Assembly (NCBI RefSeq): GCF_964213995.1
Contig: NW_027590388.1
Span: 186,001 to 250,000, forward strand
Direction of reading: 5' to 3'
DNA from: Mustelus asterias
Taxonomy: Eukaryota
Length of the DNA stretch: 64,000 bases
Shown here: positions 561 through 64,000 of the stretch, piece by piece
How the letters are laid out: every line of letters begins with the position of its first letter
How positions within the stretch are numbered: position 1 is the first letter of the stretch
Translations under genes and position numbers: made by a program
The notes under the pieces: model-generated
What the model was told of the DNA's origin: nothing
Database searches by the model: none
The model's input: only the letters and a program-made list of their open reading frames with translations

Positions 561-788
561 CACCCCCAGCAGCAACTTCAACCAAAGACCCAACTGGGAA
601 AAGGTGAATATTTCCGCATGTTTAAAATCAGTCATAAAATCATTAAATATGATTTGTTGTTGTGAGCTGCATTATTTGTGAGAATGAGAGTGACGGAGTG
701 GGATTGATCCACAGCCTGAGTCACCAGTTTAAGGACAGGAGGAGAGAGAATCTGGAGAGGACAAAAGAATCAGGAGAGTGCAGTGAGC

Positions 789-837
789 ATGGATCTGTCA
801 ATCAGCCTCAATCAGCACCTTCAGGAGAATTGGGAGG
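789..837 (+). other. 5' exon of ZNF gene 1 with uORF MDLSISLNQHLQENWE
   Basis: ATG at 789, donor G|GTGAAT at 837/838, acceptor ttttacag|G at 1004/1005; identical 49 nt at 33984-34032. Confidence 0.6.
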
Positions 838-1342
838 GTGAATATTAGATACAGCAGAGTGAAAATGGAGGGAGAGTGTGTGGGATGGAGATTCACAGCT
901 TTTGGGGAATGAGAGAGAAAGAATGTTCCATAGAAACGAGAATTGTCTGTTCTGAATTTCTGTCCTGTACTGACACTGATGACTTTTGTAAACTCATTTT
1001 ACAGGATATTGAAAGAGGAATCACAGACCGAAATCTCAAACGTCACATCAGATCTGACAGAGTCATATTCCTTGGGAGCTGAATATCATCGGCCTTTGAA
1101 TCCAGAAGGACAAATGATTGTCCGGTCTGTCGATTTGAAAGGATTTCAAATGTCAGTGTGACTGGAAAAGGACCAACACGCTGCCACGCTCGGGTGAGGG
1201 TGTTAAAGAGCTTTAACCAGTTACACAGCCTGAATAAAGATCACACCATTAACAGCGGGGAGAGACTGCACTCGTGTTGTGTGTGTGTTAACGAGGCTTC
1301 AACTGATTGTCCACCAAAGAGAGAGGCAAGGACACATGCACC

Positions 1343-2437
1343 ATGGAGAAACCATGGAAATGCGGGGACTGTGGGAAGAGATACAGATCGCCATCAGAGC
1401 TGGAAGTTCATCGGCGCAGTCACACTGGAGCGAGGCCATTCGCCTGTTCTCAGTGTGGGAAGGGATTCAGTGAAATATCCCACCTGCGGACACACCAGCG
1501 AGTTCACACTGGGGAGAGGCCGTTCACCTGCTCTCAGTGTGGGAAGGGATTCAGTCAGTTATCCAGCCTGCAGACACACCAGCGAGTTCACACTGGGGAG
1601 AGGCCGTTCACTTGCTCTCAGTGTGGGAAAGGATTCAGTCAATTATCCAACTTGCAGACACACCAACGAGTTCACACTGGGGAGAGACTGTTCACTTGCT
1701 CTCAGTGTGGGAAGGGATTCAGTCAGTTATCCAACCTGCGCAAACACCAGCGAGTTTGCACTGGGGAAAGGCCATTCACCTGCTCTCAGTGTGAGAAGGA
1801 ATTCACTCATTTATCCAGCCTGCAGACACACCAGCGAGTTCACACTGGGGAGAGGCCGTTCACCTGCCCTCAGTATGGGGAGGGATTCACTCAATCATCC
1901 AACCTGCAGACACACCAGCGAGTTCACACTGGGGAGAAACCATTCACTTGCTCTCAGTGTGGGAAGGGAGTCACTCAGTTATCGAGTCTGCGGACACACC
2001 TGCGAGTTCACACTGGGGAGAGACCATTCACCTGCTCTCAGTGTGGGAAGGGATTCAGTGATTCATCCAGCCTGCGGAGACATGAGCGAGTTCACACTGG
2101 GGAGAGGCCGTTCACCTGCTCTCAGTGTGGGAAGGAATTCACTCAGTTATCCAGTCTGCGGACCCATGAGCGAGTTCACACTGGGGAGAGGCCGTTCAGC
2201 TGCTCTCAGTGTGGGAAGGGATTCAGTCAGTTATCCAATCTGCGGACACACGAGCGTATTCACACTGGGGAGAAACCGTTCACCTGCTCTCAGTGTGGGA
2301 AGGGATTCACTGACTTATCCAACCTGTGCACACACCAGCGAGTTCACACTGGGGAGAGGCCGTTCACCTGCTCTCAGTGTGGAAAGGGTTTCAGAGTTTC
2401 AGCCCAGCTGCTGAGACACCAACAAGTTCACGAGTGA
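1343..2437 (+). CDS. C2H2 zinc-finger protein (ZNF gene 1), 364 aa, 13 finger repeats
   Basis: MEKPWKC start in ACCATGG context; 28-aa repeats with TGERPF linkers; finger 5 ends in C (C2HC), finger 7 has C->Y. Confidence 0.9.
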
Positions 2438-2699
2438 TTCCAGGGGTTGGATTCTGCTGTTATTGTTTCTGCTCTCAATTACATCCAGGACTGCATTTTA
2501 TTCATTCTCACAGTTAGTCAATGGAGAGGGTCGGAGGGTTTCTTTCTGCTGGACTGGCCGGTCTCACGACATTGCCTCCAGTGGGCTGATGCTCTTTGAG
2601 TCTTGTTGCAAATACCTGGTTTCAAATTTCACAAGGATCACAGAGTGACCGGGTGTGAGGAAGTTCAGAGATATTTAGTCAGCATTTCTGTTTGATACC

Positions 2700-2935
2700 T
2701 CCCCAAATTCCCATCCAATTTCCTTTGTAATTGTTTATTGTCTCCATTTCCTCCACCCTCGTAGGCAGCGAGTTCCAGGTCATTACCATTCGCTGCATCA
2801 AATTGTTCTTTCTCACATCCCCCCCCGCATCTCTGACCCAAAATCATAAATCTGTGTCCCCCTCGTCCTTGTCCCATCAGCTAATGGGAACGGATTTTCT
2901 TTGTCCACCTTATCTAAACCTGTCAGAATCTTGTC
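2700..2935 (-). mobile_element. old CR1 LINE 3' fragment shared by the 3' flanks of ZNF genes 1, 2 and 5
   Basis: degenerate CR1 ORF2 C-terminus; copies at ~12505-12810 and ~49055-49380. Confidence 0.7.
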
Positions 2936-3252
2936 AGGAATGTGTAGCTGGAAATCCCTCCCTAACAGCACTGTGGGTGTACTTATACCTCAGGCATTAT
3001 AGCAGTTCAGGAAGGCAGTGTTGGGGTTGACCACGGCCGAGGCAGCTACATACAGCCACATATTCTGTTATAATTGAAGGACAGCAGATTGAATGTGAGA
3101 CATTATGGGACTGGACTATCTTGACCACATTCCTGTGACTGCTCAGTTTCTGCAATCACGAACCATTAAAGCTGCTTAGCAGGGCCCCGACAGAGGACCT
3201 TGTGAGAATATTTACACAGAACGAGTTAGAATGAAACTTATTCCATAGGTTT

Positions 3253-3552
3253 GGGCGGCATGGTGGCACAGTGGTTAGCACTGCTGCCTCACAGCGCCAG
3301 GGACCCGGGTTCGATTCCTGGCTCGGGTCACTGTCTGTGTGGAGTCTGCACATTCTCCCCGTGTCCCTGTTTCCTCCCAAAGTCCAAAGATGTGTGGGTT
3401 AGGTGGATTGGCCATGCTAAATTGCCCCTTAGTGTCAGGGGGACTAGCTAGGGTAAATGCATGGGGGATAGGGCCTGGGTGTGATTGTGATCGGTGCAGA
3501 CTCGATGGGCCAAATGGCCTCCTCTGCACTGTAGGATTCTATGAATCTATGA
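3253..3552 (+). mobile_element. HE1-like tRNA-derived V-SINE
   Basis: tRNA head with A box TGGCACAGTGG and B box GGTTCGATTCC, central core, CR1-type tail; absent from the inverted paralog near 12035. Confidence 0.9.
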
Positions 3553-3907
3553 ATAACCAGCTGATATTCAGTGGCTGAGATATCCAAATCTGTAAAAAGG
3601 GGGTCTGACCAATCAACAAACGGTGGTAGGTAGTAGATTAAGAAGCGTTCTCAGGCATTAAATTATTTTATCATAAATTTGTGATAAGAACTGTGAAGGT
3701 CTTGTGACCCGGTCGTCGGTGAGGTGACGGTACACTCCAAGTAGCACTGGACTGAAAAGTGGATCTCTAAGAGTGGATTCTAATGGTTATAATCTTACCC
3801 AAGCATGGCCAGTGAAAAATTCAGAGCTCGAGTGGGCACCAGACAGATTTCTTACCTGTCTTTTGGAAACTAAGAACAAGAAACTTATCGATAAAATGAT
3901 TTGAGAA

Positions 3908-5240: not shown

Positions 5241-5242
5241 TA

Positions 5243-10069: not shown

Positions 10070-10089
10070 CACTGTCACTGTGCCACCAT

Positions 10090-12927: not shown

Positions 12928-13635
12928 TCAGCCCACTGGAGGCAAAGTCATGAGACCGGCCTCCGACCCTCCCCATTGACCAAGAAACCCTCCGACCCTC
13001 CCCATTGACCAACTGTGAGAATGAACAAAATGCAGTCCTGGATGTAATTGAGAGCAGAATTGGTGTCTCAGCAGGTGGGATGAAACTCTGAATCTCTTCC
13101 CACACACAGAGCAGGTGAATGGCCTCTCCCCAGTGTGAACTCGCTGGTGTGTGCAGAGGTTTGAGAGGTCAGTGAATCCCTTCCCACACTGAGAGCACAT
13201 AAATGGTTTCTCCCCAGTGTGAACTCGCTCGTGTGTCCGCAGACTGGATAACTGAGTGAATCCATTCCCACACTGAGAGCAGGTAAATGGTCTCTCCCCA
13301 GTGTGAACTCGCTGGTGTCTTTGCAGGCCTGATGAATTACTGAATCCCTTCCCACACTGAGAACAAGTGAATGGTCTGTCCCCAGTGTGAACTCGCTGGT
13401 GAGTCCGCAGGTTGGATGACTGAGTGAATCCCTGCCCACACTGAGAACAGGTGAACGGTCTCTCCCCAGTGTGAACTCGCTGGTGTCTTTGCTGGCCGGA
13501 TGAATCACTGAATCCCTCCCCACACTGAGAGCAGGTGAATGGTCTCTCCCCCGTATGGCTGCGCCAATGCGCTTCGAGCTCAGATGGGTATCCGTATCTC
13601 TTCTCACAGTCTGCACATTTCCATGGTTTCTCCAT
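12928..13635 (-). CDS. C2H2 zinc-finger protein (ZNF gene 2), 235 aa, 6 intact fingers plus a broken 7th
   Basis: MEKPWKC start at 13635; ~44-bp deletion removes the last His and the normal stop; may be a pseudogene. Confidence 0.75.
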
Positions 13636-14121
13636 GGCGCAGGTGTCCTTGCCGCTCTCTTGGGTGGACAATTAGTTGAAACTTCGTCCACACACACAAC
13701 ACGGGTACAGTCTCTCCCCGCTGTGAATGGTGTGATATTTATTCAGGCTGTGTAACTGGTTAAAGCTCTTTAGTCAGTGCACTGGAACACTCTCACTCGA
13801 GTGTGGCCGTGTGTTGGCGCTTTTCCAGTCACACTGATGTTTGAAATCTTTTCAAATCAACAGACCGGACAATCATTTCTTCTTCTAGATTCAAAAGCCG
13901 ATGATATTCAGCTCCCAAGGAATAAGACTCTGTCAGATCTAGACGTGACGTTTGAGATTTCAGCCTGTGATTCCTCTTTCAATATCCTGTAAAATGAGTT
14001 TCCAAAAGTCATCAGTGTCAGTACAGGATAGAAATTCAGAACAGACAATTTCTATGGAACATTCTTTCCTCTCTCATTCCCCAGAAGCTGTAAATCTCCA
14101 TCCCACACACTCTCTCCCCAT

Positions 14122-14250: not shown

Positions 14251-14309
14251 TTTTCCAGCATTTTCTCTCTTGGTTTCAGATTCCAGCATCCGCAGTAATT
14301 TGCTTTTAT

Positions 14310-16599: not shown

Positions 16600-17434
16600 T
16601 TTCCAGAGTCTGCACCCTCCCTGGATTCACTTCCTTTCCCTTCAGTTGCTGCAAGTCCCCAATTTCCCCCAGAATGAGAAAAGAAATGGAAAGGGGGAGA
16701 AAAGAAAGTGTTTTACTCACAGATATGAGCGACAGGAGGAAGTTTCAGTCTGTCTGAAGATCAATCTTCATTCACACAAAGCCCGCGCTCTGATTGGCTG
16801 GAAGACCAGAGTCCTCCCGGTCCTCCAACTCTTCCCATTGGTCAACACCTCAGCATGAAGATCAGAGGGTGGGTTCTCCCCCGCACATGCGCAGCTTCCC
16901 CTCTCCCTCGCACATTTGCAGTCCCGGGCCGGGGGGGGAGCGGGGGGTGCGATCACCGAGCGGCTTCTCGCTCTGGCCGGAGCCGTCAGCCGGTTGCCTG
17001 GAAACCTTGGCTCGATGTGGTGCAGGGGGAGGGGAACAATGGGTGGGGGCGGGGCTCCCGGGTCCGCGCGCCCGGGCCTGCTCACTGGAACCCGGAGACG
17101 TCACCGCGGAGCAGAGAGATTCCTATTGGCTGATTCAGGCAGGGCTCTATCGTGACGTCACAATGCGGAAGTTGTCAAATGAGCTTCAGAGTGAAACTTC
17201 CTCCTCTGGACAACATCTGGGAGGAAATCAATGTTTCCCCCTTTCCATTTCTTTTCTCATTCTGGGGGAAATTGGGGACTTGCAGCAACTGAAGGGAATG
17301 AAGTGAGTTCGGTCTGTATATTCCACACATTTTTACTCCACTAATGTAGACATTTATCTGTCTGGCAGCCTGCATGGAAATTTTCAGCTCTCTGCGTCCA
17401 GGGCAGGAAGCAGTGAGCATGGATCTGTCAATCA
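16600..17434. promoter_or_regulatory. bidirectional CpG-island promoter flanked by inverted exon-1/intron copies
   Basis: 16625-16750 is the reverse complement of ~17190-17305; CCAAT boxes, GC box, TGACGTCA at 17153, NRF1-like motif. Confidence 0.7.
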
Positions 17435-18522: not shown

Positions 18523-18576
18523 GGCCACATGTCAGTGCCATCGCCCGACTCCAGCCCAGTCTCAGCTCATCTGGAA

Positions 18577-18686
18577 CCCTCACCCATTCCATTGTGACGT
18601 CACACCCTCACCCATTCCATTGTGACGTCACACTCCCACCCATTCCATTGTGATGTCACACCCTCACCCATTCCATTGTGACGTCA
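18577..18686. repeat. 28-bp minisatellite x4 containing TGACGTCA
   Basis: unit ccctcacccattccattgtgacgtcaca. Confidence 0.95.
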
Positions 18687-18689
18687 GGG

Positions 18690-19300
18690 CTTCACTCTCC
18701 GATCACAATCCCTGCCGGCCTCCCACATGCAGCCTCAATGGCGGCAGTCAGCCCGGGTCTAACACTACAAGCTGCCGCTCCATTTGGTACAAAGGGGGGT
18801 ACCGGGAAGTTCATTTCCGGGGTTTGGGTTTGAACAACATGTTTACAAAGCCTCTCCACCCGCTGGATTCATCGCTCCCCGCGCACCGCCCTCTACCTCG
18901 TATTGATCTCGCTTCCGAGTTAAAACCGTCTGTCCGTCGCCATTACCCGCACTGCGCATGCTTCAGGTCCCGCCCCTCATTCACTCCGATTGGTTGGAGG
19001 ACCAGCCGCTCCAGCTCGGTCCTCCAGCACCGCCCCCTCTTCCTATTGGTCCGGAGCTGCCGTCAATCAGTCCCCGGGCATTGTGATGTGGAGCATGCGC
19101 AGAGTCATTGCTGTCCTTGGCGCTTGTTTGTCCCGGAGAAGCGGAGTCAGCGTTAGGCGGTGGCTGGGAGGATTTGGAAACACTTTGTGGATCCGCAAAC
19201 CCTTCAGAATCATTGTCAGCTCCCTGGTTTGCAGCTGCGGGGCTTCTCCTTCCCTCCCTCCCTCCCGGGAACAGGCCCAGGTTAACGGCCCCATCCTGGC
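18690..19300 (+). promoter_or_regulatory. CpG-island promoter/first exon of ZNF gene 3
   Basis: ATGGCGG (YY1-like), CCGGAA (ETS-like), GCGCATGC (NRF1-like), GC box, CCAAT boxes; near-identical to 53315-53910. Confidence 0.75.
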
Positions 19301-19676: not shown

Positions 19677-20260
19677 GAACTGAATCCAGACAGAGGAGAG
19701 GGAGGGAGAAAACTGGGACTGGAGGAAAGAAATGGTGAGATGGGTTTGGATTTCAGCCCAGGGAGGAGGGAGAGTGTGTGGGACAGGGATTTACAGATTT
19801 TGGGGAACAAGAGAGGAAAAAATGTCCCAGAGAAACTAGAATTGTCTGTTCAGAATTTCTATCCTGGACTGACAGTGATGACTTTTCCAAATTTTTTTTA
19901 CAGGATATTGGAAGTGGAGGATTGGCAGACAGAAAACTCAAACCGAACATCATGACTGGCAAAGTCATTTTGTTCATTCGGAGCTGAATATCATTGGTCT
20001 TTGAATATGGGAGGAGAAATGTTTGACTCTTCTGTCTGTCGGCAAAGATTTTAAACATCAGTGTGACCGGAAAAGCATTGAAACAAACACACGCCCGATT
20101 GAGGGTGTTCCAGTGAACTGACTGTGGAAAGAGCTTTAACCAGTCCACAGCCTGAAAAAACATCACAGTTCACAGCAGGGTGAAACTACGTGTATGTTGT
20201 GTGTGTGGATGAGGCTTGACCTGATCATCCAACCTGGAGATACACAAGGGCACCAGCACC

Positions 20261-21355
20261 ATGGAGAAACCGTGGAAATGTGTGGAGTGCGGGAAGGGAT
20301 TCGGTTTCCCATCACAACTGGAAGTTCATCGGCGCAGTCACACTGGGGAGAGACCGTTCACCTGCTCTGTTTGTGGGAAGGGATTCACCCATTCATACAA
20401 CCTTCTGACTCACCGACGGGTTCACACTGGGGAGAGGCCGTTCACCTGCCCTGTGTGTGGGAAGGGATTCACTCGCTCATCCCACATTGTGACACACCAA
20501 CTTGTTCACACAGATGAGAAACTGTTTACATGTTCTGACTGTGAGAAGAGTTTTAAATGCAAAAAAGATCTGCTGACGCACCAACGTATTCACACTGGGG
20601 AGAGACCATTCACCTGCTCTGTGTGTAGGAAAGGATTCATTCAGTCATCCCACTTGCAGACACATCAACTTGTTCACTCTGATAACAAACTTTTTAATTG
20701 TTCCCACTGTGAGAAGAGCTTTAAAAATAAAAAAGATCTGCTGACGCACCAATATGCTCACACTGGGGAGAGGCCATTCACCTGCTGTGTGTGTGGGAAG
20801 GGATTCAGCCGCCCATCTGCCCTATTGAACCACCAGAGAATTCACACTGGGGAGAGGCCCTTCACCTGCTCAGACTGTGGGAAGGGATTCATTAATTCAT
20901 CTAACCTTCTGATACACCAGCAACTCCACACAGGGGATCGACCGTTCAACTGCTCTGAATGTGGGAAGGGATTCACCCGTTCATACAACCTTCTGACACA
21001 CCAGCAGGTTCACAGTGAGGAGAGGCCATTCACTTGCTCCGTGTGTGGGAAGGGATTCACTCGTTTATCCAACTTATTGAATCACCAGCGAGTTCACACT
21101 GGGGAGAGGCCATTCACCTGCTCTGTATGTGGGAAGGGATTCAGTCAGTCATCCAACCTGCTGACACATCAGAGAGTTCACAGTGGGGAGAGGCCATTTA
21201 CCTGCTCTGTCTGTGGGAAGGGATTTTCTCATTTATCTTATCTTCTGAAACACCAGCGAGTTCACACTGGGGAGAGGCCGTTCACCTGTAATGTCTGTGG
21301 AAAGGGATTTATTCAGTCATCCCACCTGCTAACACACCAGCGAGTTCACAAGTGA
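20261..21355 (+). CDS. C2H2 zinc-finger protein (ZNF gene 3), 364 aa, 13 fingers
   Basis: intact MEKPWKC...HQRVHK* array; acceptor at 19903/19904; AATAAA at 21457. Confidence 0.92.
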
Positions 21356-26309: not shown

Positions 26310-26730
26310 AGCAAATCACCGTCACAATGCCCGGCTGATTGACGGCAGCGCGGACCAATGGGAAGAGGGGACAGTGCTGGAGGACCGACATGGAGCGGTC
26401 GGTCCTCCAACCAATGGGAGCGAAAGAGGGGCGGGGCCAGCTTTGACTGGAGCATGCGCAGTGTGAGTAATGGCGATGGGAAACGGCTTTTGTTCTGGGC
26501 TCGGAAATCTGTTAGAGGTGATTGGAGGTACGGAGAGAGCAATGGATCGTCCAGGTGGGTGGAAACGCTGCGTAAGCATGTTGTGTCAGCCGCAAACCGC
26601 GGAAGAGAACTTCTCGGACCCAGTTTGTACCGAGCAGGGCTGCAGCTCCTCATGTTCGTCCCGGGTTAACGTTCGCCATCTTTATTGGGGGCAATATGCA
26701 GCAGTGTGCACGTGCGGCCGCCATGTTTGT
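26310..26730. promoter_or_regulatory. orphan inverted copy of the ZNF CpG-island promoter
   Basis: reverse-complement homology to 18770-19090; CCAAT x2, GGGGCGGGG, GCATGCGC, YY1-type CGCCATCTT and CCGCCATGTT. Confidence 0.7.
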
Positions 26731-32089: not shown

Positions 32090-33768
32090 ATTCACGGGCA
32101 CGAGTTCTCGTCATAAACCAGTTGCTCGCCTCCATGCTGTGGTACCGGCTGGTCCCTTTGACCCCTCCCCCTGGCTTTGTTGCCAGTACAGTAAGAAGTC
32201 TCACAACACCAGGTTAAAGTCCAACAGGTTTATTTGGTAGCATGTTGCCAATATCCAGAGAACCCTCCTGCGGTTCTTCTGGGACAATCGACTGCACTGG
32301 GTCCCTGCCGTGGTTCTGCATCTACCGCTTGAGGAGGGCGAACAAGGTCTGGTGTGCCTCCGCATTCAGATAGCGACCTTCCGCCTCCAGGCCCTGCAGA
32401 GGTACCTTTACGTTGAGCCCCCTCCACAGTGGTGTGCCATGGCGACGTATTTCTTCCGCCAGTGGCACGGCCTGAGTTATGACTTGCAGCCCCTGCATAT
32501 CGAACTGGGGCGTGCTTCGACCACCCTGCAGGAGTTGCCCGTCTTTTACCAGGACCTCCTCACTGTCTGGAACAAGGTCGCCTCGCGACGCAGCTCTCCC
32601 CCGTCAGGAGTAGCGGCTCTCGTGCGAGAGCCGCTGCTCAGGAATCCGCTCCTCCAGCCGTATGACTTCAGGTGGCTGGCGGAGAGGGGGGCTGTGGACG
32701 CCGGGGTGACCAGAATCGGGGACGTGCTCGATGGCGGAGGAGCGGGCTGGATGAGTCCCCGCGTGCTGGCTGAGCGCGTTGGGACATCCGTCTGGCGCGC
32801 GGCCAAAGCCATCCTAGACCTTAGGACGGTCGTGCTCGGCCCCGAAACTGCACGCAAACTCGAGACGGCGCAGGCGTGCGGTGGGATCCCGCCCGAGCGT
32901 TCCCCTGTTCGGGCGGAATTCCACATTGGCCCAAAGCCTCAGCCCCCTCCCCTGGGTGAGGTGCCCCACAGCCTGAGCCGCCTCACGGAAATGTCCTCCG
33001 TGCCTTTTTCTACCGCGCGGAGGTGTTTCCTGTGCGGGCTGCTGCTGCACACCTTCCACTACCGCGTCCTCACCTGTCGCCCGGATACACCTTGGCGGGC
33101 CTTGTTGCCGCCGGGCGGCGGAGGTCCCTCTACGGAGGGATCTCCCCCAATTACGTCGGGGACCTGGGGTGGAGAGTGATGCATGCAGCAGTGCCGCACA
33201 ACCGTAGGATTCACTGGTTCACGGGCTCCGAAGACTGCCCTTTCTGTGGCCTTGTGGAGTCCGTGGACCATGTCTTTCTTTTGTGTCTTAGGTTGCACTC
33301 CCTTTTTGTTTTCCGAAAGAACCGTTTATTAATGTTTTGCTTGCACTTCAGTCCCACGCTCCTGATCTACGGACACCCGGTGCGGAGAGGGGAGGGTCGG
33401 GATGGCGACCTCCTCGTGAACCTGCTCCTGGCGAAACGCGCCATTTACCGGTCCAGGCAGCGGGCGATCGAGGGGGCCGTCCATCCTGACTGTCTTCCCC
33501 TCTACCGCGGCTACGTTCGCGGCCAGCTGTCCCTGGAGAGGGAGCATGCGGTGTCCATGGGCGCGGTTGACGCCTTCCGCGCCCGCTGGGCACCGCAGGG
33601 GTTGGGGTGCATTACTGACCCTAATAACCACATTTTAATTTGATGTTTTTAAGTTTCCTTTGTACTTTGATTTCTGTTCGGGCTGTTCCCCCTCCTTTTG
33701 GGGAGCTGCCCCTTTTACTTTGTCCTGATTTAACTTGAGTTTGTTTCTTTGGTTTGACCTAAAAAGAG
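32090..33768 (+). mobile_element. Tx1-like (L1 clade) LINE 3' fragment, frameshifted
   Basis: LVINQLLASMLWYRL, LHLPLEEGEQGL, zf-RVT CPFC...ESVDHVFLLC; T-rich 3' UTR ending aaaaagag. Confidence 0.85.
32189..32242 (-). mobile_element. 54-bp Penelope terminal fragment nested in Tx1
   Basis: 11-bp TSD tgttgccaRta (1 mismatch). Confidence 0.85.
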
Positions 33769-33983
33769 GCCAACATCTGTGAGTAAAAGACTTCCTTTTC
33801 TCCCCTTTCCATTTCTTTTCTCATTCTGAGGGAAATTGGGAATTTGCAGCAACTGAAGGGAAAGGAAGTGAATCCAGTCTGTACATTCCACACATTGTTC
33901 GTCCTGTCACATCGACATATATCTGTCTGGCAGCCTGAATGGAGATTTTCAGCTCTCTGTGTCCAGGACAGGAAGCAGTGAGC

Positions 33984-34032
33984 ATGGATCTGTCAATCAG
34001 CCTCAATCAGCACCTTCAGGAGAATTGGGAGG
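33984..34032 (+). other. 5' exon of ZNF gene 4 with uORF MDLSISLNQHLQENWE
   Basis: identical to 789-837; donor GTGAAT; acceptor at 34859/34860. Confidence 0.6.
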
Positions 34033-34107
34033 GTGAATATTAGATACAGCAGAGTGAGAATGGAGGGAGAGTGTGTGGGATGGAGATTCACAGCTTTTGG
34101 GGAATTA

Positions 34108-34766: not shown

Positions 34767-35132
34767 ATGAAAAAAGAATTTTCCATAGAAACTAAAATAG
34801 TCTGTTCTGAATTTCTCTCCTGCACCGACAATGATGACTTTTGTAAATTCCTTTTACAGGATATCAGAGGGTGAGGATTTACAGATAGAAATCTCAAACT
34901 TCTCCTGAAGATCACCTGAAGATCTGACAGTCACTCAATTCACTGGGACATGTATATAATCGACCTTTGAATCCAAAAGTAGAAAACTTCTCTGTTCTGT
35001 CTGCTTCAGAAGATTTTAAACATCAGTGTGACCAGAAAAGCACCGAGACACACTCACACCGGAGTGAGAGTGTTCCAGTGCACTGAGTGTGGAAAGAGCT
35101 TTAACCAGGAGAGTCACAAGGACACCCGCACC

Positions 35133-36395
35133 ATGGAGAAACCATGGAAATGTGGGGACTGTGGGAAGGGATTCAGGTTTCCATCTGAGCTGGAAACTCA
35201 TCAACGCAGTCACACTGGGGAGAAACCATTCACCTGTTCTGTGTGTGGGAAGGGATTCACTCAGTTACCCGGTCTGCTGAGTCACAATCTCACTCACACC
35301 AGTGAGAGACCCTTTAAATGCTCTGACTGTGGGAGTGACTTCAAAAGCTCACAGGATCTGATGTCCCACCAGCGCATTCACACTGAGGAGAGACCGTTCA
35401 GCTGCTCTCACTGCACAAAGAGATTTAAATGGTCATCCAGCCTGCGGAGACACCAGCGAGTTCACACTGGGGAGAAGCCGTTCACCTGCTCTGACTGTGG
35501 GAAAGGATTCACTCAGTTATCTGACCTGTGGACACATCAACGGGTTCACACTGGGGAGAGGCCGTACACTTGCTCTGACTGTGGGAAAGGATTCACTCAC
35601 TCAACCATTCTGCGGAGACACCAGCGAGTTCACACCGGGGAGAAACCGTTCACCTGCTGTGTGTGTGGGAAGGGATTCACTACTTCATCCAACCTGCTGA
35701 CACACAAAGTCACTCACAGCAATGAGAGACCCTTTAAATGTTCTGACTGTGGAAGTGGCTTCAAAAGTGCTGCAGATCTGATGATTCACCAGCGCATTCA
35801 CACTGAGGAGAGACCCTTCAGCTGCTCTCACTGCACAAAGAGATTTAAATGGTCATCCACCCTGAGGACACACCAGCGGGTTCACACTGGGGAGAAGCCA
35901 ATCACCTGCTCTGTGTGTGAGAAGAGATTCACTCAGTTATCTGACCTGCGGATACACCAGCGAGTTCACACTGGAGAGAGGCCGTACAACTGCTCTGTGT
36001 GTGGGAAGGGATTCACTCAGTTATCCAACCTGCAGAGACACCAGCGAGGTCACACTGGAGAGAGGCCATTCACTTGCTCTGACTGTGGGAAAAGATTCAC
36101 TCACTCAACCATTCTGCTGACACACCAGCGAGTTCACACCAGGGAGAGACTGTTCACCTGCTCTGACTGTGGGAAAGGATTCACTCAGTTATGCAGCCTG
36201 AAGAGACACCAGCGAATTCACACTGGGGAGAGGCCGTTCATCTGCACTGTGTGTGACAAGGGATTCAGACATTCAAATGCCCTGAAGAGACACCAGCGAA
36301 TTCACACTGGGGAGAGACCCTTCACCTGCCCTCAGTGTGGGAAGGGATTCAGTACATCATCCAGCCTGCGGAGACACCAGCGAGTTCACAAGTGA
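35133..36395 (+). CDS. C2H2 zinc-finger protein (ZNF gene 4), 420 aa, 15 fingers
   Basis: MEKPWKC start at 35133; intact array ending HQRVHK*. Confidence 0.92.
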
Positions 36396-50681: not shown

Positions 50682-51860
50682 TCACTCGTGAACTTGTTGG
50701 TGTCTCAGCAGGTGGGATGAAACTCTGAATCCCTTCCCACATACAGAGCAGGTGAATGGTCTCTCGCCAGTGTGAACTCGCTGGTGTATCCGCAGGTCAG
50801 ATGACTGAGTGAATCCCTTCCCACACTGAGGGCAGGTGAATGGCCTCTCCCCAGTGTGAACTCGCTGGTGTGTCCGCAGGTGGGTTGACCGAGTGAATCC
50901 CTTCCCACACTGAGAGCAGGTGAACGGCCTCTCCCCTGTGTGAACTCGCTGGTGTGTCAGCAGATCAGATGAGTTTGTGAATCCCTTCCCACACTGAGAG
51001 CAGATGAATGGTTTCTCCGCAGTGTGAACTTGCTGGTGTGTCTGCAGGTGGGTTGACCGAGTGAATCCCTCCCCACACTGAGAGCAGGTGAACGGCCTCT
51101 CTCCTGAGTGAACTCGCTGGTGTGTCCGCAGGTCAGATGACTGAGTGAATCCCTTCCCACACTGAGAGCAGGTGAATGGTTTCTCCCCAGTGTGAACTCG
51201 CTGGTGTATCCGCAGGTGGGATGACTGAGTGAATCCCTTCCCACACTGAGAGCAGGTGAATGGCCTCTCCCCTGTGTGACGTAGCTGGTGTCTCTGCAGG
51301 TCGGCTAACTGAGTGAATTCTTGCCCACACTGAGAGCAGGTGAACGGTCTCTCTCCAGTGTGAACTCGTTCGTGTGTCCGCAGGTTGGATGACTGAGTGA
51401 ATCCCTTCCCACACTGAAAACAGGTGAATGGCCTCTCCCCAGTGTGAACTCGCTGGTGTCTCTGCAGGTGGGATGACCGAGTGAATCTCTTCCCACACTG
51501 AGAGCAGGTGAATGGCCTCTCCCCAGTGTGAACTCGCTGGTGTCTCTGCAGGTGGAATGACCGAGTGAATCCCTTCCCACACTGAGAGCAGGTGAACGGC
51601 CTCTCTCCAGTGTGAACTTGCTGGTGTGTCTGCAGGCTGGATAACTGTATGAATCCCTTCCCACACTGCGAGCAGGTGAATGGCCTCTCCTCAGTGTGAA
51701 CGCGCTGGTGTGACTGCAGGTGGGATAACTGATTAAATCCCTCCCGACAGTGAGAGCAGATGAATGGTCTCTCCCCAGTGTGGCTGCGCCGATGAGTTTC
51801 CAGCTCTGATGGGGCTCTGTATCCCTTCCCACAGTCTGCACATTTCCATGGTTTCTCCAT
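50682..51860 (-). CDS. C2H2 zinc-finger protein (ZNF gene 5), 392 aa, 14 fingers
   Basis: MEKPWKC start at 51860; intact array ending HQQVHE*; closest to genes 1 and 2. Confidence 0.92.
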
Positions 51861-52529
51861 GGTGCAGGTGTCCTTACCTGTCTCTTGAGTGGACAATTAG
51901 TTGAAACTTCGTCCACACACAGAACAAGATTACAGTCTCGACCCGCTGTGAATGTTGTGATATTTATTCAGGCTGTGTAACTGGTTAAAGCTCTTTAGTC
52001 CATGCACTAGAACACTCTCACTCGAGTGTGGCAGTGTGTTGATGCTTTTTCACTCACACTGACATTTCAAATCCTTTCAAATCGACAGACTGGACAATCA
52101 TTTCTCCTTCTGGATTCAAAGTCCGATGATATTGAGGTCCCAAGGAATATGACTCTGTCACGTCTCGACGTGACGTTTGAGATTTCAGCCTGTGATTCCT
52201 CTTTCAATATCCTGGAAAATGAGTTTCCAAAAGTCATCAGTGTCAGTACAGGATAGAAATTCAGAACAGACAATTTCTATGGAACATTCTTTCCTCTCTC
52301 ATTCCCCAAAAGCTGTAAATCTCCATCCCACACACTCTCTCCCCATTCTCAGCAGGTCTGGCAGCATCTGCATGGAGAGAAAAGAACTGATGTTTCAGAG
52401 CTTTGACAAAGGGTCATCTAGACAAGAAACATCAGCTCTTTTCTCTCCTTACAGATGCTGCCAGACCTACTGAGATTTTCCAGCATTTTCTCTCTTGGTT
52501 TCAGATTCCAGCATCCGCAGTAATTTGCT

Positions 52530-53175
52530 TTTATAAGGCTGCAGATACCTCCTCCCAGGTAACATGCGTGTGCCCAAGACATCACCACTTGTTTCCCTTA
52601 TTTCTTTCGCACCCATGGTGCTCTCCGCAGTAAACACAGAGGAGAAGTATTCATTAAAAATCTCACCCATCTCCTGCGGCTACCCACACAGATGGCCATA
52701 CTGATTTTTAAGGGGATCTATTCTCTCTCTAGCCACCCTTTTACTCTTAATATAGCTATAGAACCTCTTGGAATTTTCTTTAATCTTACCTGCCAGATCC
52801 ATATCAGACCCTCTTTTTGTCCTCCTGATTTCCCTCTTCAGTATTTTCTTACACTTTTTATAGTCAGAGTGATTCACTTGTCCCCAAAGAACAATACAGC
52901 ACAGGAACAGACCCTTCGGCCCTCCAGGCCCACGCCGCTCCCTGGTCCAAACTAGACCATTCTTTTGTATCCCTCCATTCCCACTCCATTCATTTGGCTA
53001 TCTAGATAAGTCTTAAACGTTCCCAGTGTGTCCGCTCCACCACCTTGCCTGGCAGCGCATTCCAGGCCCCCACCACCCTCTGTGTAAAATACGTCCTTCT
53101 GGTATCCGTGTTAAACCTCCCCCCCTCACCTTGAACCTATGAGCCCTCGTGAATGTCACCACCGACGTGGGAAAA
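52530..53175 (-). mobile_element. CR1 fragments (old 52530-52885; young 3' end 52887-53175)
   Basis: KENSKRFYSYIKSKR; CR1 tail. Confidence 0.85.
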
Positions 53176-53313
53176 CCCTCACCCATTCCATTGTGACATC
53201 ACACCCTCACCCATTCCATTGTGACATCACACCCTCACCCATTCCATTGTGATGTCACGCTCTCACCCATTCCATTGTGACGTCACACTCTCACCCATTC
53301 CATTGTGACGTCA
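53176..53313. repeat. 28-bp minisatellite x5 containing TGACGTCA and CpG-decayed variants
   Basis: paralog of 18577-18686. Confidence 0.95.
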
Positions 53314-53314
53314 G

Positions 53315-53910
53315 GGCTTCACTCTCCGATCACAATCCCTGCCGGCCTCCCACATGCAGCCTCAATGGCGGCAGTCAGCCCGGGTCTAACACTACAAGCT
53401 GCCGCTCCATTTGGTACAAAGGGGGGGACCGGGAAGTTCATTTCCGGGGTTTGGGTTTGAACAACATGTTTACAAAGTCTTTCCACCCACCCGCCACATT
53501 TATCATTCCCCGCGCGCCGCCCTCTACCTCGTATTGATCTCGCTTCCAGGTTAAAACCATCCGCCTTTCCGTCGCCATTACCCGCACTGCGCATGCTTCA
53601 GATCCCGCCCCTCATTCACTCCGATTGCTTGGAGGACCAGCCGCTCCCGCTCGGTCCTCCAGCCCCGCCCCCTCCTCCTATTGGTCCGGAGCTGCCGTCA
53701 ATCAGTGCCCGGGCATTGTGATGTGGAGCATGCGCAGTGTCATTGCTGTCCTTGGCGCTTGTTTGTCCCGGAGAAGCGGAGTCAGCGTTAGGCGGTGGCT
53801 GGGAGGATTTGGAAACACTTTGTGGATCCGCAAACCCTTCAGAATCATTGTCAGCTCCCTGGTTTGCAGCTGCGGGGCTTCTCCCTCCCTCCCGGGAACA
53901 GGCCCAGGTT
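53315..53910 (+). promoter_or_regulatory. CpG-island promoter/first exon of ZNF gene 6 (possibly shared with gene 5)
   Basis: near-identical to 18690-19300. Confidence 0.72.
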
Positions 53911-54155: not shown

Positions 54156-54440
54156 TAAGAAGACTCACAACACCAGGTTAAAGTCCAACAGGTTTATTTG
54201 GTAGCAAAAGGCACTCGCTTTCGGATCACTGCTCCTTCATCAGGTGAGTGGGACTTGTGTTCATAAACAGGGCATATATATTGACACAAACTCAATTTAC
54301 AAGATAATGGTTGGAATGCGAGTCTTTACAGGCAATCAAGTCTTAAAGGTACAGAAAATGTGAGTGGAGAGAGGGTTAAGCACAGGTTAAAGAGATGTGT
54401 ATTGTCTCCAGCCAGGACAGTTAGTGAGATTTCCACATCA
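54156..54440 (-). mobile_element. Penelope pLTR insertion with degenerate hammerhead
   Basis: 14-bp TSD agaactgaacccag (54142-54155/54441-54454). Confidence 0.9.
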
Positions 54441-55032
54441 AGAACTGAACCCAGACAGAGGAGAGGGAGGGAGAAAACTGGGAGTGGAGGGAAGAAATGG
54501 TGGAGATGTTGAGATGGGTTTGGATTTCAGCCCAGGGAGGGGGGAGAGTGTGTGGGACGGGGATTTATCGATTTGGGGGAACAAGAGAGGAAAATATGTT
54601 CCAGAGAAATTTCAGAATTTCTATCCTGCACTGACAGTGATGGTATTTGTAAACTGTTTTTGCAGGGTATTATGAAGCAAGATTTACAGATATGAAACTC
54701 AAACCAAACTTCACATCAAGATCTGTTTCAGTGATTTGATTAATCAGAAACTGAATATAATCAGCCTTTGTCTACAGAAGGAGAAATGTTTATTCTGTCT
54801 GCGGGCAAAGATTTCAAACATCAGTGTGACTGAAAAAGCACATTGACACACACACACCTGAGAGTTTCCAATGTGCTGAATGTGGAAAGTGGTTTAACAA
54901 GTCTGAAAAACAATCACATCATTGTCAGTGAGTAGTGACCCGACGCATATTCTGTGTAAACGAGGCTTCAACTCATCATCCAACCTGGAGTCACACGAGG
55001 ACACCGGCAGCTCAGAGAAACCATTGAAATGT

Positions 55033-56238
55033 ATGGACTGTGGGAGGGGCTTCAATTACCCGTCCGAATTGGATATTCATCGTCGCATTCACACTGGAGA
55101 GAGGCCGTTCACCTGCTCTGAGTGTGGGAAAGGATTTGCTTACTCATCCAGCCTCTATACACACCGGCGTGTTCACACTGGAGAGAGGCCATTCACCTGC
55201 CTCGAATGTGGGAGGGGATGTCATGCTTTATCAAGCCTCCTGATTCACCGGCAGGTTCACTCCGATCAGAGACTGTTTCAGTGTTCTGATTGTGAGAAAA
55301 GCTTTAAAAGCACAAAGGACCTCCTGAGACACCAGCGCACTCACATGGCGGTGAGACCGTTCACCTGCTCAGTGTGTGGGAAGGGATTCACTCAGTCATC
55401 CCACCTTCTGACACACCAACTTGTTCACACTGATCAGAGACCATTTCAATGTTCTGACTGTGAGAAGAGATTTAAAAGTAAATATGATTTACAAGTCCAT
55501 CAGCGCACTCACACTGGGGAGAAGCCATTCACCTGCTCCGTGTGTGAGAGGAGATTCGGACGTTTATCCCAGCTGCAAACACACCAGCGAGTTCACTCTG
55601 ATAAGAGACCATTTCAGTGTTCTGACTGTGAGAAGAGCTTTAAAAGTAAACAGGATTTGGTGACACACCAGCGAGTTCACACTGGGGAGAAACCGTTCAC
55701 CTGCTCGGTGTGTGGGATGGGATTCACCCATTCATCCCACTGTCTGAGACACCAGCGAGTTCACACCGGGGAGAAACCATTCATTTGCTGTGTGTGTGGG
55801 AAGGGATTCACTGATTCACCTCACCTCCTGATACACGAGCGGATTCACACTGGGGAGAAACCCTTCACTTGCTCCACATGTGGGAAACGATTCACTCAGC
55901 CACCCCAGCTCATTGCACATCAACTAGTCCACACTGATCAGAGACCTTTTAAGTGTTCTGACTGTGAGAAAAGCTTTAAAAGCTCTAAGGACCTGCTGAG
56001 ACACCAGCAAATTCACACTGGAGAGAGATCATTCACCTGCTCCATGTGTGGGAAAAGGTTCACTCAGTCATCCCACCTGCTGAGACACCAGCAGGTTCAC
56101 ACAGGAGAGAGATCGTTCACCTGCTCCGTATGTGGGAAGAGATTTGCTTGGTCAGCCAATCTACTGAGACACCAGCAAGTTCACAAGTCACTGCAGGGGT
56201 TGGATTCTGCTGTTGCTGCTCACCCCATGCAGGACTGA
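55033..56238 (+). CDS. C2H2 zinc-finger protein (ZNF gene 6), 14 finger repeats, start uncertain
   Basis: frame open from 54922; family ATG replaced (SEKPLKC); first ATG at 55033 lies inside finger 1; ancestral stop read through. Confidence 0.75.
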   Translation: MDCGRGFNYPSELDIHRRIHTGERPFTCSECGKGFAYSSSLYTHRRVHTGERPFTCLECGRGCHALSSLLIHRQVHSDQRLFQCSDCEKSFKSTKDLLRHQRTHMAVRPFTCSVCGKGFTQSSHLLTHQLVHTDQRPFQCSDCEKRFKSKYDLQVHQRTHTGEKPFTCSVCERRFGRLSQLQTHQRVHSDKRPFQCSDCEKSFKSKQDLVTHQRVHTGEKPFTCSVCGMGFTHSSHCLRHQRVHTGEKPFICCVCGKGFTDSPHLLIHERIHTGEKPFTCSTCGKRFTQPPQLIAHQLVHTDQRPFKCSDCEKSFKSSKDLLRHQQIHTGERSFTCSMCGKRFTQSSHLLRHQQVHTGERSFTCSVCGKRFAWSANLLRHQQVHKSLQGLDSAVAAHPMQD

Positions 56239-56388: not shown

Positions 56389-56394
56389 CTGTTA

Positions 56395-61835: not shown

Positions 61836-62164
61836 ATGATATGGTGGCACAGTGGTTAGACCAGTTGGCTCACAGCCCCAGGGACCCAGGTTTGATTCCG
61901 GCCTTGGGTGGCTGTGTCGAGTTGGCACATTCATCAGCTTTTTTTTTGTGGATCATTTCAGTGGAAATGTGCTCTCCCAAACTCAAAGAGCATCAGTCCA
62001 CTGAAAACAAAGTTGTGAGACCGGCCAGTCCAGCAGAAAGAAACCCTCCAACCCTCCCACTTCACCAATTGTCAAAATGAACATAGTTCAGTCCCGGATG
62101 TGATTAACAGCAGCAATAACAGCAGAATCCAACCACTGTCATCACTTGTGAACTTACTGGTGTC

Positions 62165-63379
62165 TCAGCAGGTGGGATGACTGAGTGAATCCCTTTGTGA
62201 ATCCTTGTGAACTCGCTGGTGTGTCAGCAGGTGGGATGACTGCATGAATCCCTTTCCACACTCAGAGCAGATAAACGGCCTCTCTCCGGTGTGAACTTGC
62301 TGGTGACTCTGCAGATAAGATGAAAGAGCGAATCCTTTCCCACACTCAGAGCAGGTGAATGGTCTCTCCCTGGTGTGAACACGTCGGTGTGCCTGCAGGT
62401 TAGCTGAACGAGTGAATCCCTTCCCACACTCAGAGCAGGTGAACGGCCTCTCCCCGGTGTGAACTTGCTGGTGATTCTGCAGGTCGGATAACTGAATGAA
62501 TCCCCTGCCACACTCGGAACAGGTGAATGGCCTCTCCCTGGTGTGAACCTCCTGGTGTGACACTAGGTGGGATGATTGAATAAAACGCCTCCCACACTCG
62601 GAGCAGACGAATGGCCTCTCCCTGCTGTGAACTCCCTGGTGTGACATTAGGTGTGACGATTGGATAAAACGTTTCCCACATTCGGGGCAGCTGAATGGCC
62701 TCTCCCTTGTGTGGGTTCCTTGGTGTGTCACTAGGTGTGATAACTGAATAAAACGCTTCCCACACTCGGAGCAGGGGAACGGCCTCTCCCTCCTGTGGAC
62801 TCCCTGGTGAGTCACTAGGTGTGATAACTGAATAAAACACTTCCTGCACTCAGAGCAGTTGAAAGGCCTCTCCTTAGTGTGGGCTCGCTGGTGTATCTGC
62901 AGGTGAGATGACTGAGTGAAACCCTTTCCACAGTCGGAGCAGGTGAATGGTCGCTTTCCGGTGTGGATTTGTTGGTGATTCAAAAGTTCAGATGAATGAT
63001 TGAATTGCTTCCCACACTCAGAGCAGTTGAACGGTTTTTCCCCAGTGTGAACTTGCTGGTGTGTCAGCAGGTGGGATAACTGAGTGAATCCCTTCCCACA
63101 ATCAGAGCAGGTGTACAGCCTCTCCCTACTGTGAACTGCTTGGTGATTCCACAGGTCGGCTGCCTGGAGAAAACCCTTCCCACACTCGGAGCAGATGAAG
63201 GGCCTCTCCCCAGTGTGGCTGCATTGATGAATCTTCAGGGCAGATGGGGAGCAGTCTCCTTCCCCACACTTGGAGCAGGGGAACAGTCTCTCCCCAGTGT
63301 GAATATGTTGATGAGTTTGCAGTGCAGACGGGATACGGAATTCCTTACCACAATCCTCATCTTTCCCCGGTTTCTCCAT
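62165..63379 (-). CDS. C2H2 zinc-finger protein (ZNF gene 7), 404 aa, 13 intact fingers
   Basis: MEKP start at 63379; first finger degenerate (GKDEDC); ancestral last finger lost by frameshift. Confidence 0.88.
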
Positions 63380-63882
63380 GGTGTGGATGTCCTTGTGTCT
63401 TTCCAGGTTTAACAATCAGTTAAATCCTCATCCATTCATAGAGCATGTGTACTGTCTGTCCCCGCTGTAAATGATGTGATATTTTTGCAGTCTGTGTAAC
63501 TGGTCTTTTGACAGTCAGTGTACTGGACACTCTCACTCAGCTCTGTGTTCCTTGGTGCCTTTCCAGTCACACTGATGTGACAGAAAAAACAGATAAATAT
63601 TTCTTCTTCTCGATTCAAAGTCTGATGATATTCAGGTTCTGATAATTTGAGTGACTCTATTAAGCCTTAACATGTTTTGAGATTGCTGGCAGCAAATCTT
63701 CCCCTTATAACTTCCTGTAAAATGAGTTTACAAAAGTCATCACTGTCAGTATCAAACAGAAATTCAGAATAGACAATTCTAGTTTCTGTGGAACATTTCT
63801 TCCTTTCTCGTTCCTCTGGATCTGTACATCTCCATCCCACACCCTATCCCTGTATCCTCACTCTGCTGTCTGTATAATACAC

Positions 63883-63931
63883 CCTTCCAATTCTCCTGAA
63901 GGTGTTGATTCATGCTGATCAACAAATCCAT
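63883..63931 (-). other. 5' exon of ZNF gene 7 with uORF MDLLISMNQHLQENWK
   Basis: homolog of 789-837; GT donor at 63882; acceptor ttttacag at 63715. Confidence 0.55.
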
Positions 63932-64000
63932 GCTCAGTCCTTCTTCTCCAGCACTGAGATATCTTCATGCAGGTTGCTCGTCTAAATACCTAAATATACT

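What the first reader, a model, noticed from the sequence alone, without database searches (positions are those of the whole stretch)
780..63940. Seven effector-less tandem zinc-finger genes built on one conserved cassette within a TE-dense region
Seen: all seven share a splice acceptor (gacttttgtaaactcattttacag-like), decayed upstream fingers, an (M)EKPWKC first finger and a conserved 3' UTR, while finger number and helix residues differ. The proteins are nearly pure arrays (364, 392, 420 aa = 13, 14, 15 x 28) with no KRAB/SCAN/BTB. Known: KRAB-ZFP and teleost FiNZ clusters co-evolve with TEs. Inference: a chondrichthyan analogue that represses or competes without a fused effector, and the best candidate here for an undescribed host system.
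Basis: partly seen in the sequence, partly recalled or inferred. Interest (0 to 1): 0.7.

Follow-up and report, generated by a model that had tools for sequence, protein, structure and literature searches.

The report
Shark finger-only zinc-finger gene cluster
This is a cluster of seven related shark or ray genes, some already decaying, whose proteins consist only of zinc fingers with no attached silencing domain, and whose unusual first finger may be the part that docks a partner protein.

Summary
The observation mostly holds. Seven C2H2 arrays share an intron end, an acceptor, a 273-357 nt leader of decayed fingers, a distinctive first finger and a short 3' block.

Corrections: only 5 of 7 begin MEKPWKC. 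Three copies (g2, g6, g7) are damaged.

'Effector-less' is well supported here. Every leader has 4-10 in-frame stops, so nothing spliced to the shared acceptor can reach the fingers, and 0 of 170 upstream ORFs hit KRAB, SCAN or BTB. The arrays are under purifying selection: ligand omega 0.08, and 2 terminal frameshifts against about 61 expected. Positive selection at helix -1/2/3/6 is not shown (omega about 0.8).

Relatives in other sharks and rays carry the same first finger. Elasmobranch ZNF expansions are already counted in print (703-3586 ORFs), but I found no characterisation of them.

New lead: finger 1 is a fixed, acidic Pro+1/Glu+5 finger, absent from 3065 non-chondrichthyan fingers, and may be a built-in docking module. 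TE repression remains inference.

The parts
230..603 (+). Promoter module P1: CpG island with an NRF1-like site, GC boxes and CCAAT boxes in a 60-bp x3.2 repeat, followed by a candidate non-coding first exon ending at a donor at 604
   Evidence: motif names recalled; function inferred
780..837 (+). Candidate small 5' exon with an upstream ATG, donor at 838. Also present before g4 (33975-34032) and g7. If spliced, it gives a short uORF that stops in the leader
   Evidence: splicing inferred
860..1004 (+). Conserved intron 3' end and acceptor of g1; homologous stretch in all seven genes
1005..1342 (+). g1 leader: decayed linker and three decayed fingers, 10 in-frame stops, 3 uATGs
1343..2437 (+). 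g1 CDS, 364 aa, 13 units of which 2 are degenerate
2438..2520 (+). Family-wide 3' UTR block; similarity to g2 and g5 runs on to about 2936
12928..13986 (-). g2: leader 13986-13636, CDS 13635-12928, 6 intact fingers; finger 7 and the stop are removed by a deletion
16600..17434 (.). CpG island with a partial promoter module and CRE site, carrying two oppositely oriented copies of a 5' module; likely promoter of g2
   Evidence: assignment inferred
18576..19130 (+). Promoter module P3 (28-bp CRE-containing repeats, YY1-like, NRF1-like and CCAAT sites); 92% identical to P6 over 1054 bp
19904..21355 (+). g3: leader 19904-20260, CDS 20261-21355, 364 aa, 13 intact fingers
26320..26730 (-). Further promoter module copy; possible promoter of g4, separated from it by retroelement insertions
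   Evidence: assignment inferred
33768..34105 (+). 5' module of g4 including the small-exon copy
34860..36395 (+). g4: leader 34860-35132 (98-nt deletion; frame open for 50 codons; pyrimidine-rich in-frame AG 123 nt before the ATG), CDS 35133-36395, 420 aa, 15 intact fingers
50682..52211 (-). g5: leader 52211-51861, CDS 51860-50682, 392 aa, 14 intact fingers
53170..53760 (.). Promoter module P6 between the head-to-head genes g5 and g6
54666..56238 (+). g6: leader 54666-55011, 14 fingers from 55012; family start codon lost, first in-frame ATG at 55033 inside finger 1; stop read through by 16 aa
62165..63714 (-). g7: leader 63714-63380, CDS 63379-62165, 404 aa; finger 1 lacks its first Cys; out-of-frame partial finger at the 3' end; promoter not in the window

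Best explanation
These are members of a large, old elasmobranch family of ZNF-only genes with one coding exon, spreading by segmental duplication (birth and death). A CpG-island promoter, often shared head to head, drives non-coding 5' exon(s) that splice to a conserved acceptor. The terminal exon opens with a roughly 340-nt leader of dead fingers. Translation starts at an ATG in strong Kozak context that sits where the Gly of a TGEKP linker would be, so the protein is an exact run of 28-aa units with nothing else.

The protein has two parts. Finger 1 is a fixed, acidic signature finger (W-K-C-x-D-C...P-S-E-L-E) under purifying selection. Fingers 2 to n are shuffled by unequal exchange and differ in their base-contacting residues.

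Most likely working: the variable fingers bind repeat or TE DNA in a sequence-specific way. Repression is either steric or goes through a cofactor or partner docked on the fingers themselves, with finger 1 the best candidate.

SHOWN: anatomy, absence of a route to a fused domain, purifying selection, the finger-1 signature, family breadth. INFERRED: transcription, start-codon use, DNA targets, repression, docking role. I put the architecture at about 0.85 and the full mechanism at about 0.4.
For: 1. All three leader frames carry stops in 7 of 7 genes, with 4-10 stops in the array's frame. In 5 of 7 the last in-frame stop lies 13 codons before the ATG, and no AG in that gap has a pyrimidine fraction above 0.65.
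2. 0 of 170 upstream ORFs of at least 45 aa hit KRAB, SCAN or BTB. A KRAB profile built from 98 fetched named proteins hit 109 of 191 named proteins, 0 of the 21 chondrichthyan ones, and nothing in the six-frame window.
3. Leaders hold 19 non-triplet indel blocks in 2,351 nt, which predicts about 61 in 7,560 nt of arrays. 2 are seen, both at the extreme C-terminus.
4. Codon-model omega over 82 non-first fingers: ligands plus F and L 0.08, linker 0.19, base-contact positions 0.79. There are 58 distinct fingerprints among 80 intact fingers.
5. Internal fingers show no one-to-one correspondence even between g2 and g5, whose leaders are 90% identical, whereas first fingers stay orthologous.
6. Pro at +1 with Glu/Asp at +5 occurs in 6 of 7 window first fingers and 22 of 23 W-type fingers from other sharks. 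It occurs in 0 of 80 window internal fingers and 0 of 3065 fingers from 170 non-chondrichthyan proteins. The 4 of 318 other shark or ray fingers that match are also first-type by eye. Mean helix charge is -1.6 against +0.4. Finger-1 omega is 0.28 among g1-g5.
7. The promoter module occurs 5 times, each in a CpG island. Translations of the promoter, leader and intron end appear in Heterodontus and Scyliorhinus gene models.
8. Context: ZNF ORF number tracks retroelement number across metazoans independently of accessory domain (PMC10547256, abstract and Discussion read). Single C2H2 fingers can be protein-interaction modules (bioRxiv 10.1101/2025.09.04.674178, abstract only).
Against: There are no expression, binding or repression data.

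Omega at -1/2/3/6 does not exceed 1 (pairwise 0.95, CI 0.69-1.30; LRT against 1 gives 2dlnL 2.9), so an arms race is not shown. The high omega at +1/+5 (2.2-4.7) sits on few codons that mostly toggle by one base, and finger recombination violates the model.

Finger 1 is broken or untranslated in 2 of 7 genes (g6, g7) whose arrays are otherwise intact. End units of tandem arrays escape homogenisation mechanically, and finger 1 is no better conserved in DNA than the leader among g1/g2/g5 (0.82-0.89 against 0.89-0.91).

Many fingerprints are generic (QSHT, QSST, QSNT). Leaders carry 1-5 uATGs, which could dampen translation. The TE-dense setting proves nothing, since elasmobranch genomes are repeat-rich generally.
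Confidence: 0.4

Rival explanations
1. Pure occupancy. The arrays bind DNA, or RNA, and act only by blocking other factors. Finger 1 is a fixed DNA or start-codon anchor, or simply the unhomogenised end of the array.
For: No effector sequence of any kind. Finger 1 is dispensable in g6 and g7. First and last fingers both stay orthologous between close paralogues.
Against: The acidic helix with invariant Pro+1 is shared across sharks and with two batoid proteins and is absent from 3065 other fingers. That is more constraint than position alone explains; finger-1 omega is 0.28.
Confidence: 0.22
2. A mostly drifting expansion. Repeat-driven duplication multiplies the genes, selection only keeps folded, in-frame proteins (or conversion from a few functional copies refreshes the rest), and the changing helices are relaxed rather than adaptive.
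For: Base-contact omega is about 0.8-0.95. 3 of 7 copies are damaged and g1 has 2 degenerate fingers. A 131-bp tract is 99% identical between g1 and g4, suggesting conversion or chimerism.
Against: Strong constraint on ligands and linkers, near absence of frameshifts, and retained promoters and splice signals. The intron end is more conserved than the leader.
Confidence: 0.2
3. The family does have an effector, on an unannotated small upstream exon used by the sister subfamily that starts MEGK, or by cryptic acceptors. The window's genes are truncated derivatives acting as decoys or dominant negatives of those proteins.
For: In one Heterodontus model (P0134) the leader frame is open from the acceptor region into the fingers. 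g4 has a pyrimidine-rich in-frame AG 123 nt upstream of its ATG. Emerson and Thomas list missed small exons as a cause of apparent ZNF-only genes (PMC2604467 passage).
Against: There is no shared N-terminal domain among 45 non-finger segments of 21 chondrichthyan proteins beyond translations of promoter, leader or TE DNA. About 12 of the 21 start directly at MEKPWKC-like or MEGK-like starts. The g1 leader peptide found no true relative in two searches. These models are automatic and often chimeric, so the test is weak.
Confidence: 0.13
4. The cassette is cargo of a mobile element or a set of retrocopies.
For: Many similar copies among TEs.
Against: Introns and promoters are duplicated with the genes, and flanking TE fragments are shared between g2 and g5 (13061-14562 against 51286-52787, 90%). 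That fits segmental duplication. I saw no transposase ORF within a cassette. I did not run a dedicated search for terminal repeats.
Confidence: 0.04

Closest known systems
ZNF-only polydactyl C2H2 genes (Liu et al. 2014, PMC3971581; Emerson and Thomas 2009, PMC2604467)
   Same: Tandem Krueppel-type arrays with no annotated N-terminal domain and lineage-specific duplication. Table 1 of PMC3971581 lists 212 in human, 473 in frog and 1026 in zebra finch.
   Different: In those surveys the absence of a domain could reflect missed exons, pseudogenes or novel domains. Here the route to a fused domain is closed by a decayed-finger leader, and the family has a signature first finger.
Sarcopterygian KRAB-ZFP clusters
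   Same: Clustered, one large finger exon behind a conserved acceptor, fast turnover, TE-rich surroundings. Head-to-head CpG-island promoters are recalled for human clusters.
   Different: No KRAB. The old linker frame lies in phase 2 relative to the acceptor, whereas KRAB genes join in phase 1 (recalled). Genes absent from cartilaginous fishes are enriched for KRAB (PMC8455134 passage).
Cyprinid FiNZ-ZNFs and actinopterygian KRAB-like ZNFs (PMC10547256, PMC11603059)
   Same: A non-tetrapod, lineage-restricted mass expansion with a conserved 28-aa N-terminal unit ahead of variable fingers.
   Different: FiNZ is a separate acidic domain on its own exon. Here the conserved N-terminal 28-aa acidic unit is itself a zinc finger in the same exon. 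Repression of TEs was shown by knockdown for FiNZ; nothing is shown here.
Automatically annotated elasmobranch 'zinc finger protein 271/239/850-like' models
   Same: The same first finger, leader, intron end and promoter remnants.
   Different: These are the same family; the names are automatic, and many models fuse neighbouring genes through TE DNA.

Membership tests
Krueppel-type polydactyl C2H2 ZNF | At least 3-5 tandem C-x2-C-x12-H-x3-H fingers with TGEKP-type linkers | tested here: met
   6-15 intact fingers per gene
ZNF-only polydactyl genes | No KRAB, SCAN, BTB or other fused domain in the ORF | tested here: met
ZNF-only polydactyl genes | No coding exon added by splicing in real transcripts | tested here: inconclusive
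   Excluded through the shared acceptor in 7 of 7; a cryptic in-frame acceptor is possible in g4; no cDNA available
ZNF-only polydactyl genes | Protein-coding constraint rather than pseudogene decay | tested here: met
   Met for the family; individual copies g2, g6 and g7 may be decaying
KRAB-ZFP | KRAB-A domain upstream of the array | tested here: not met
   the promoter side of g7 lies outside the window
KRAB-ZFP | TRIM28-dependent repression | not testable with these tools
   Needs experiment
FiNZ-ZNF / KRAB-like ZNF | N-terminal domain on its own exon, in frame with the array | tested here: not met
   No open frame from the acceptor to the array; no FiNZ profile was available for a direct scan
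TE-targeting ZNF systems (works-like claim) | Positive selection on base-contacting positions -1, 2, 3, 6 | tested here: inconclusive
   omega 0.79, 0.95 with CI 0.69-1.30; far above the framework but not above 1
TE-targeting ZNF systems (works-like claim) | Binding to and repression of TEs; early-embryo or germline expression | not testable with these tools
   No expression or binding data

The most novel reading that the evidence does not exclude
Sharks and rays run a TE- or repeat-silencing family of hundreds to thousands of genes in which the effector is not a fused domain. It is a repurposed zinc finger: the invariant acidic finger 1 docks a corepressor (for example a TRIM24/33-type or histone-methyltransferase complex), placed at the N-terminus by a start codon in a finger linker. 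This would be an independent solution beside KRAB and FiNZ.
Probability: 0.2. Interest if true: 0.8.

Novelty: new variant of a known kind. Interest (0 to 1): 0.5.

Why it matters
Elasmobranch assemblies hold 703-3586 multi-finger ORFs, and the chimaera 475 (8 assemblies seen in the supplement of PMC10547256). That paper calls such families uncharacterised and leaves their repression mechanism open. This locus gives a defined gene model (promoter module, acceptor, dead-finger leader, signature finger) with which the family can be counted and annotated properly. It shows from sequence that an expanding, selected ZNF family need not carry a fused effector. It also turns the question of how effector-less arrays act into a direct test on one 28-residue finger. 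If the family proves passive or drifting, it is an ordinary ZNF-only cluster.

Tried and rejected
1. Leader as a coding domain. The 51-aa open g1 leader peptide gave no Pfam hit and no homologue among longer proteins. It gave one hit among 1.84 billion representatives, which proved to be an unrelated repeat protein.
2. snoRNA or other structured RNA in the conserved intron end: 0 Rfam matches at gathering threshold.
3. Stop-codon readthrough of the shared TGA: rejected, because frameshifts differ between copies on both sides.
4. Long GC-rich ORFs over the promoters as first coding exons: no Pfam hit, the frame is not kept between copies, and there is no route into the array.
5. Homodimer of fingers 1-2: complex prediction gave no answer (score 0.00, alignment not used); it is not counted either way.
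6. PDB search with finger 1 returned only generic C2H2 proteins.
7. Exact look-up: none of 8 window proteins is in the collection, so the species was not fixed. Cluster sizes of the relatives stayed unchecked.
8. Motif enrichment P values are not used as evidence, because the zones were chosen after seeing the motifs and are paralogous.
9. The omega of 0.10 at finger-1 positions +1, +2, +3, +5 is post hoc.
10. Branch-wise dN/dS was not obtained; estimates are pairwise and column-class only.
11. Binding-site prediction was not attempted, as no validated recognition code was available.
Full report
OBSERVATION. A six-frame scan finds seven C2H2 arrays: g1 1343-2437(+), g2 13635-12928(-), g3 20261-21355(+), g4 35133-36395(+), g5 51860-50682(-), g6 55012-56238(+) and g7 63379-62165(-). 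Their upstream regions align over about 110-150 nt of intron end and a 273-357 nt leader. g1, g3, g5 and g4 are exact multiples of 28 aa. MEKPWKC starts 5 of 7; g6 has lost the ATG and g7 the first Cys of finger 1; g2 is truncated by a 3' deletion; g1 has two degenerate fingers. The 3' block common to the family is about 70-80 nt. At least 64% of the DNA outside the cassettes is repeat or TE.

A module with an NRF1-like site, GC boxes and CCAAT boxes (site names recalled) occurs five times, near 270, 16780 (partial), 18950, 26460 (minus strand) and 53590. Each copy lies in a CpG island (o/e 0.63-0.71 against 0.44 window-wide); young TEs give similar islands, so the motifs and positions carry the argument. 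The genes sit head to head around these islands (g2/g3, g5/g6). P3 and P6 are 92% identical over 1054 bp, and g2 and g5 are 90% identical over 1505 bp including flanking TE fragments. That indicates segmental duplication of gene pairs. Candidate donors lie between promoters and acceptors; their use is inferred.

IS THERE A ROUTE TO AN EFFECTOR? From the shared acceptor to the start codon, all three frames contain stops in 7 of 7 genes, with 4-10 in the array's own frame. No exon spliced there can be fused to the fingers. In g1, g2, g3, g5 and g7 the last in-frame stop is 13 codons before the ATG, with no acceptor-like AG in between. g4 is the one loophole: a deletion opens 50 codons, with a pyrimidine-rich in-frame AG at -123. 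g6 is open for 35 codons without such a site.

Null scans agree. None of 170 upstream ORFs of at least 45 aa hits KRAB, SCAN or BTB; the 4 with any Pfam hit were two reverse-transcriptase pieces, a finger remnant and a spurious match. That scan left out the LTR element and would miss domains under 45 aa or absent from Pfam. A KRAB profile from 98 named proteins finds 109 of 191 named fetched proteins but nothing in the window. The start ATG occupies the Gly position of a TGEKP linker, in ACCATGG or GCCATGG context in 6 of 7 genes, which explains the exact 28-aa multiples.

ARE THEY ALIVE? Leaders contain 19 distinct non-triplet indel blocks in 2,351 nt. The same rate would put about 61 in the 7,560 nt of arrays; two are seen, both at the extreme 3' end (g2, g7). 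Over 82 non-first fingers, codon-model omega is 0.08 for ligands plus the conserved F and L, 0.19 for linkers, 0.78 for other framework, 0.79 for helix -1/2/3/6 and 4.7 for +1/+5. Tests against omega = 1 under a simpler model give 2dlnL of 77, 102, 6.9, 2.9 and 15 respectively. Counts on 41 disjoint pairs give 0.13, 0.25, 0.67, 0.95 (CI 0.69-1.30) and 2.16 (pairs were matched on non-helix codons, which biases the framework classes). So fold and frame are selected, and base-contact residues change far faster, but adaptive change there is not demonstrated. Finger shuffling and the small number of columns limit all these estimates, and conversion could keep a dead copy looking intact. Internal fingers have no one-to-one match between close paralogues, whereas first fingers do.

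THE FAMILY ELSEWHERE. Two protein searches returned 21 chondrichthyan proteins: 6 of 78 hits and 15 of the 120 listed among 7247. They come from Heterodontus, Pristiophorus, Chiloscyllium, Scyliorhinus, Cetorhinus, Mustelus, Mobula and Amblyraja. None lists KRAB, SCAN or BTB. Five start at MEKPWKC or a near variant, and seven at a MEGK-like start one finger further upstream. Their non-finger segments are largely gene-prediction joins. These translate the same leader in different frames, the intron end on the antisense strand, the promoter module and TE pieces (part of the output was cut). No shared novel domain emerged among 45 segments. Against my reading, one model (P0134) keeps the leader frame open into the fingers, so the sister subfamily could accept an upstream exon. 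The window is therefore elasmobranch, probably shark; the species was not determined.

THE SIGNATURE FINGER. I defined first-type fingers by the Trp before the first Cys, independently of the helix. All 23 such fingers in other sharks have Pro at +1 and 22 have Glu at +5. In the window 7 of 7 first fingers have Pro+1 and Ser+2, and 6 have an acid at +5. The pair occurs in 0 of 80 window internal fingers, in 4 of 318 other chondrichthyan fingers (all first-type by eye, two from batoids) and in 0 of 3065 fingers of 170 non-chondrichthyan proteins. The helix is net acidic, -1.6 against +0.4. Its omega among g1-g5 is 0.28. A fixed acidic finger ahead of variable ones is what a protein-docking module would look like, and single C2H2 fingers can serve that role (bioRxiv 10.1101/2025.09.04.674178, abstract only). 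Against this, it is broken in g6 and g7, terminal units resist homogenisation anyway, and nothing here shows binding.

WHAT IS KNOWN. Wells et al. (PMC10547256; abstract, sections 4, 6 and 10, term searches and supplement rows; supplementary files 3-5 not searched) show ZNF and retroelement numbers correlate across animals. They list 3586 ZNF ORFs for Scyliorhinus canicula, 1851 for Carcharodon, 703-1223 for five other elasmobranch assemblies and 475 for Callorhinchus. The main text never names sharks. ZNF-only genes are an established class (PMC3971581 passages), and PMC2604467 (passages and section 8) lists the reasons a domain may seem absent. PMC11603059, PMC8455134, PMC10380595, PMC11602157 and the Squalomix preprint 10.1101/2025.06.08.657570 were read as term passages only. 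None of the passages describes this family; the preprint's main text has no occurrence of zinc, ZNF, C2H2 or KRAB, though its figure labels and supplements were not visible. Nine searches listed no paper characterising elasmobranch ZNF clusters. The library lacks most subscription papers, so this is limited evidence.

VERDICT. This is a real, selected, birth-and-death cluster of ZNF-only genes belonging to a large elasmobranch family. It is not a KRAB or FiNZ member. It may work like them, but TE repression is inference (about 0.4 for the full mechanism). What is new is a positive sequence argument for the absence of a fused effector, a complete cassette including promoter, and a lineage-specific signature finger that gives a sharp test. 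New variant of a known kind; interest 0.5.

Noticed in passing
window 27085-31768: Young, apparently intact Gypsy-type LTR retrotransposon: LTRs 297 of 298 identical, and a single 1334-aa ORF on the minus strand with protease, RT, RNase H and integrase. It may lie in the first intron of g4.
   Followed up: partly
window 19528-19678 and 54157-54442: Two different retroelement fragments sit at the same site of a candidate 5' exon in paralogues g3 and g6, each flanked by a duplicated target of about 12-15 bp; the g3 insert is an inverted head-to-head pair. Either a target-site preference or one insertion later rearranged.
   Followed up: partly
window 780-910 and 33975-34105: A 131-bp tract is 99% identical between g1 and g4, whose leaders are only 77% identical: recent gene conversion or a chimeric gene.
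   Followed up: no
window 17187-17434: Orphan copy of the 5' module found before g4, cut off by a repeat insertion; possibly the remnant of a lost eighth gene.
   Followed up: no
window 18576-18686 and 53175-53313: 28-bp tandem repeats (4 and 5 copies) carrying CRE-like TGACGTCA sites at the far edge of promoter modules P3 and P6; copy number differs between paralogues.
   Followed up: no
leaders of all seven genes, e.g. window 1114-1161: A 9-nt stretch ending in TGA is invariant in 7 of 7 leaders and closes an 11-15 codon uORF in g1, g2 and g5. It could be an inherited lesion or a conserved translational control element.
   Followed up: partly
window 895-1004 and homologues: The last 110 nt of the intron are better conserved than the exonic leader (0.97-0.98 against 0.89-0.91 among g1/g2/g5); no Rfam match.
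   Followed up: partly
window 25141-26079, 40339-41789: Fragments of a Penelope-like retroelement (label recalled from the GIY-YIG-like motif; Pfam found only an RT piece), whose ends recur many times in the window.
   Followed up: no
window 32241-33643: GC-rich 3' fragment of a non-LTR retroelement with a zf-RVT match (Tx1/L1-like label recalled).
   Followed up: no
P0030 (Mobula hypostoma model): Carries an intact finger just upstream of the signature finger, homologous to the window's last decayed finger, with Arg where most window copies have a stop.
   Followed up: partly
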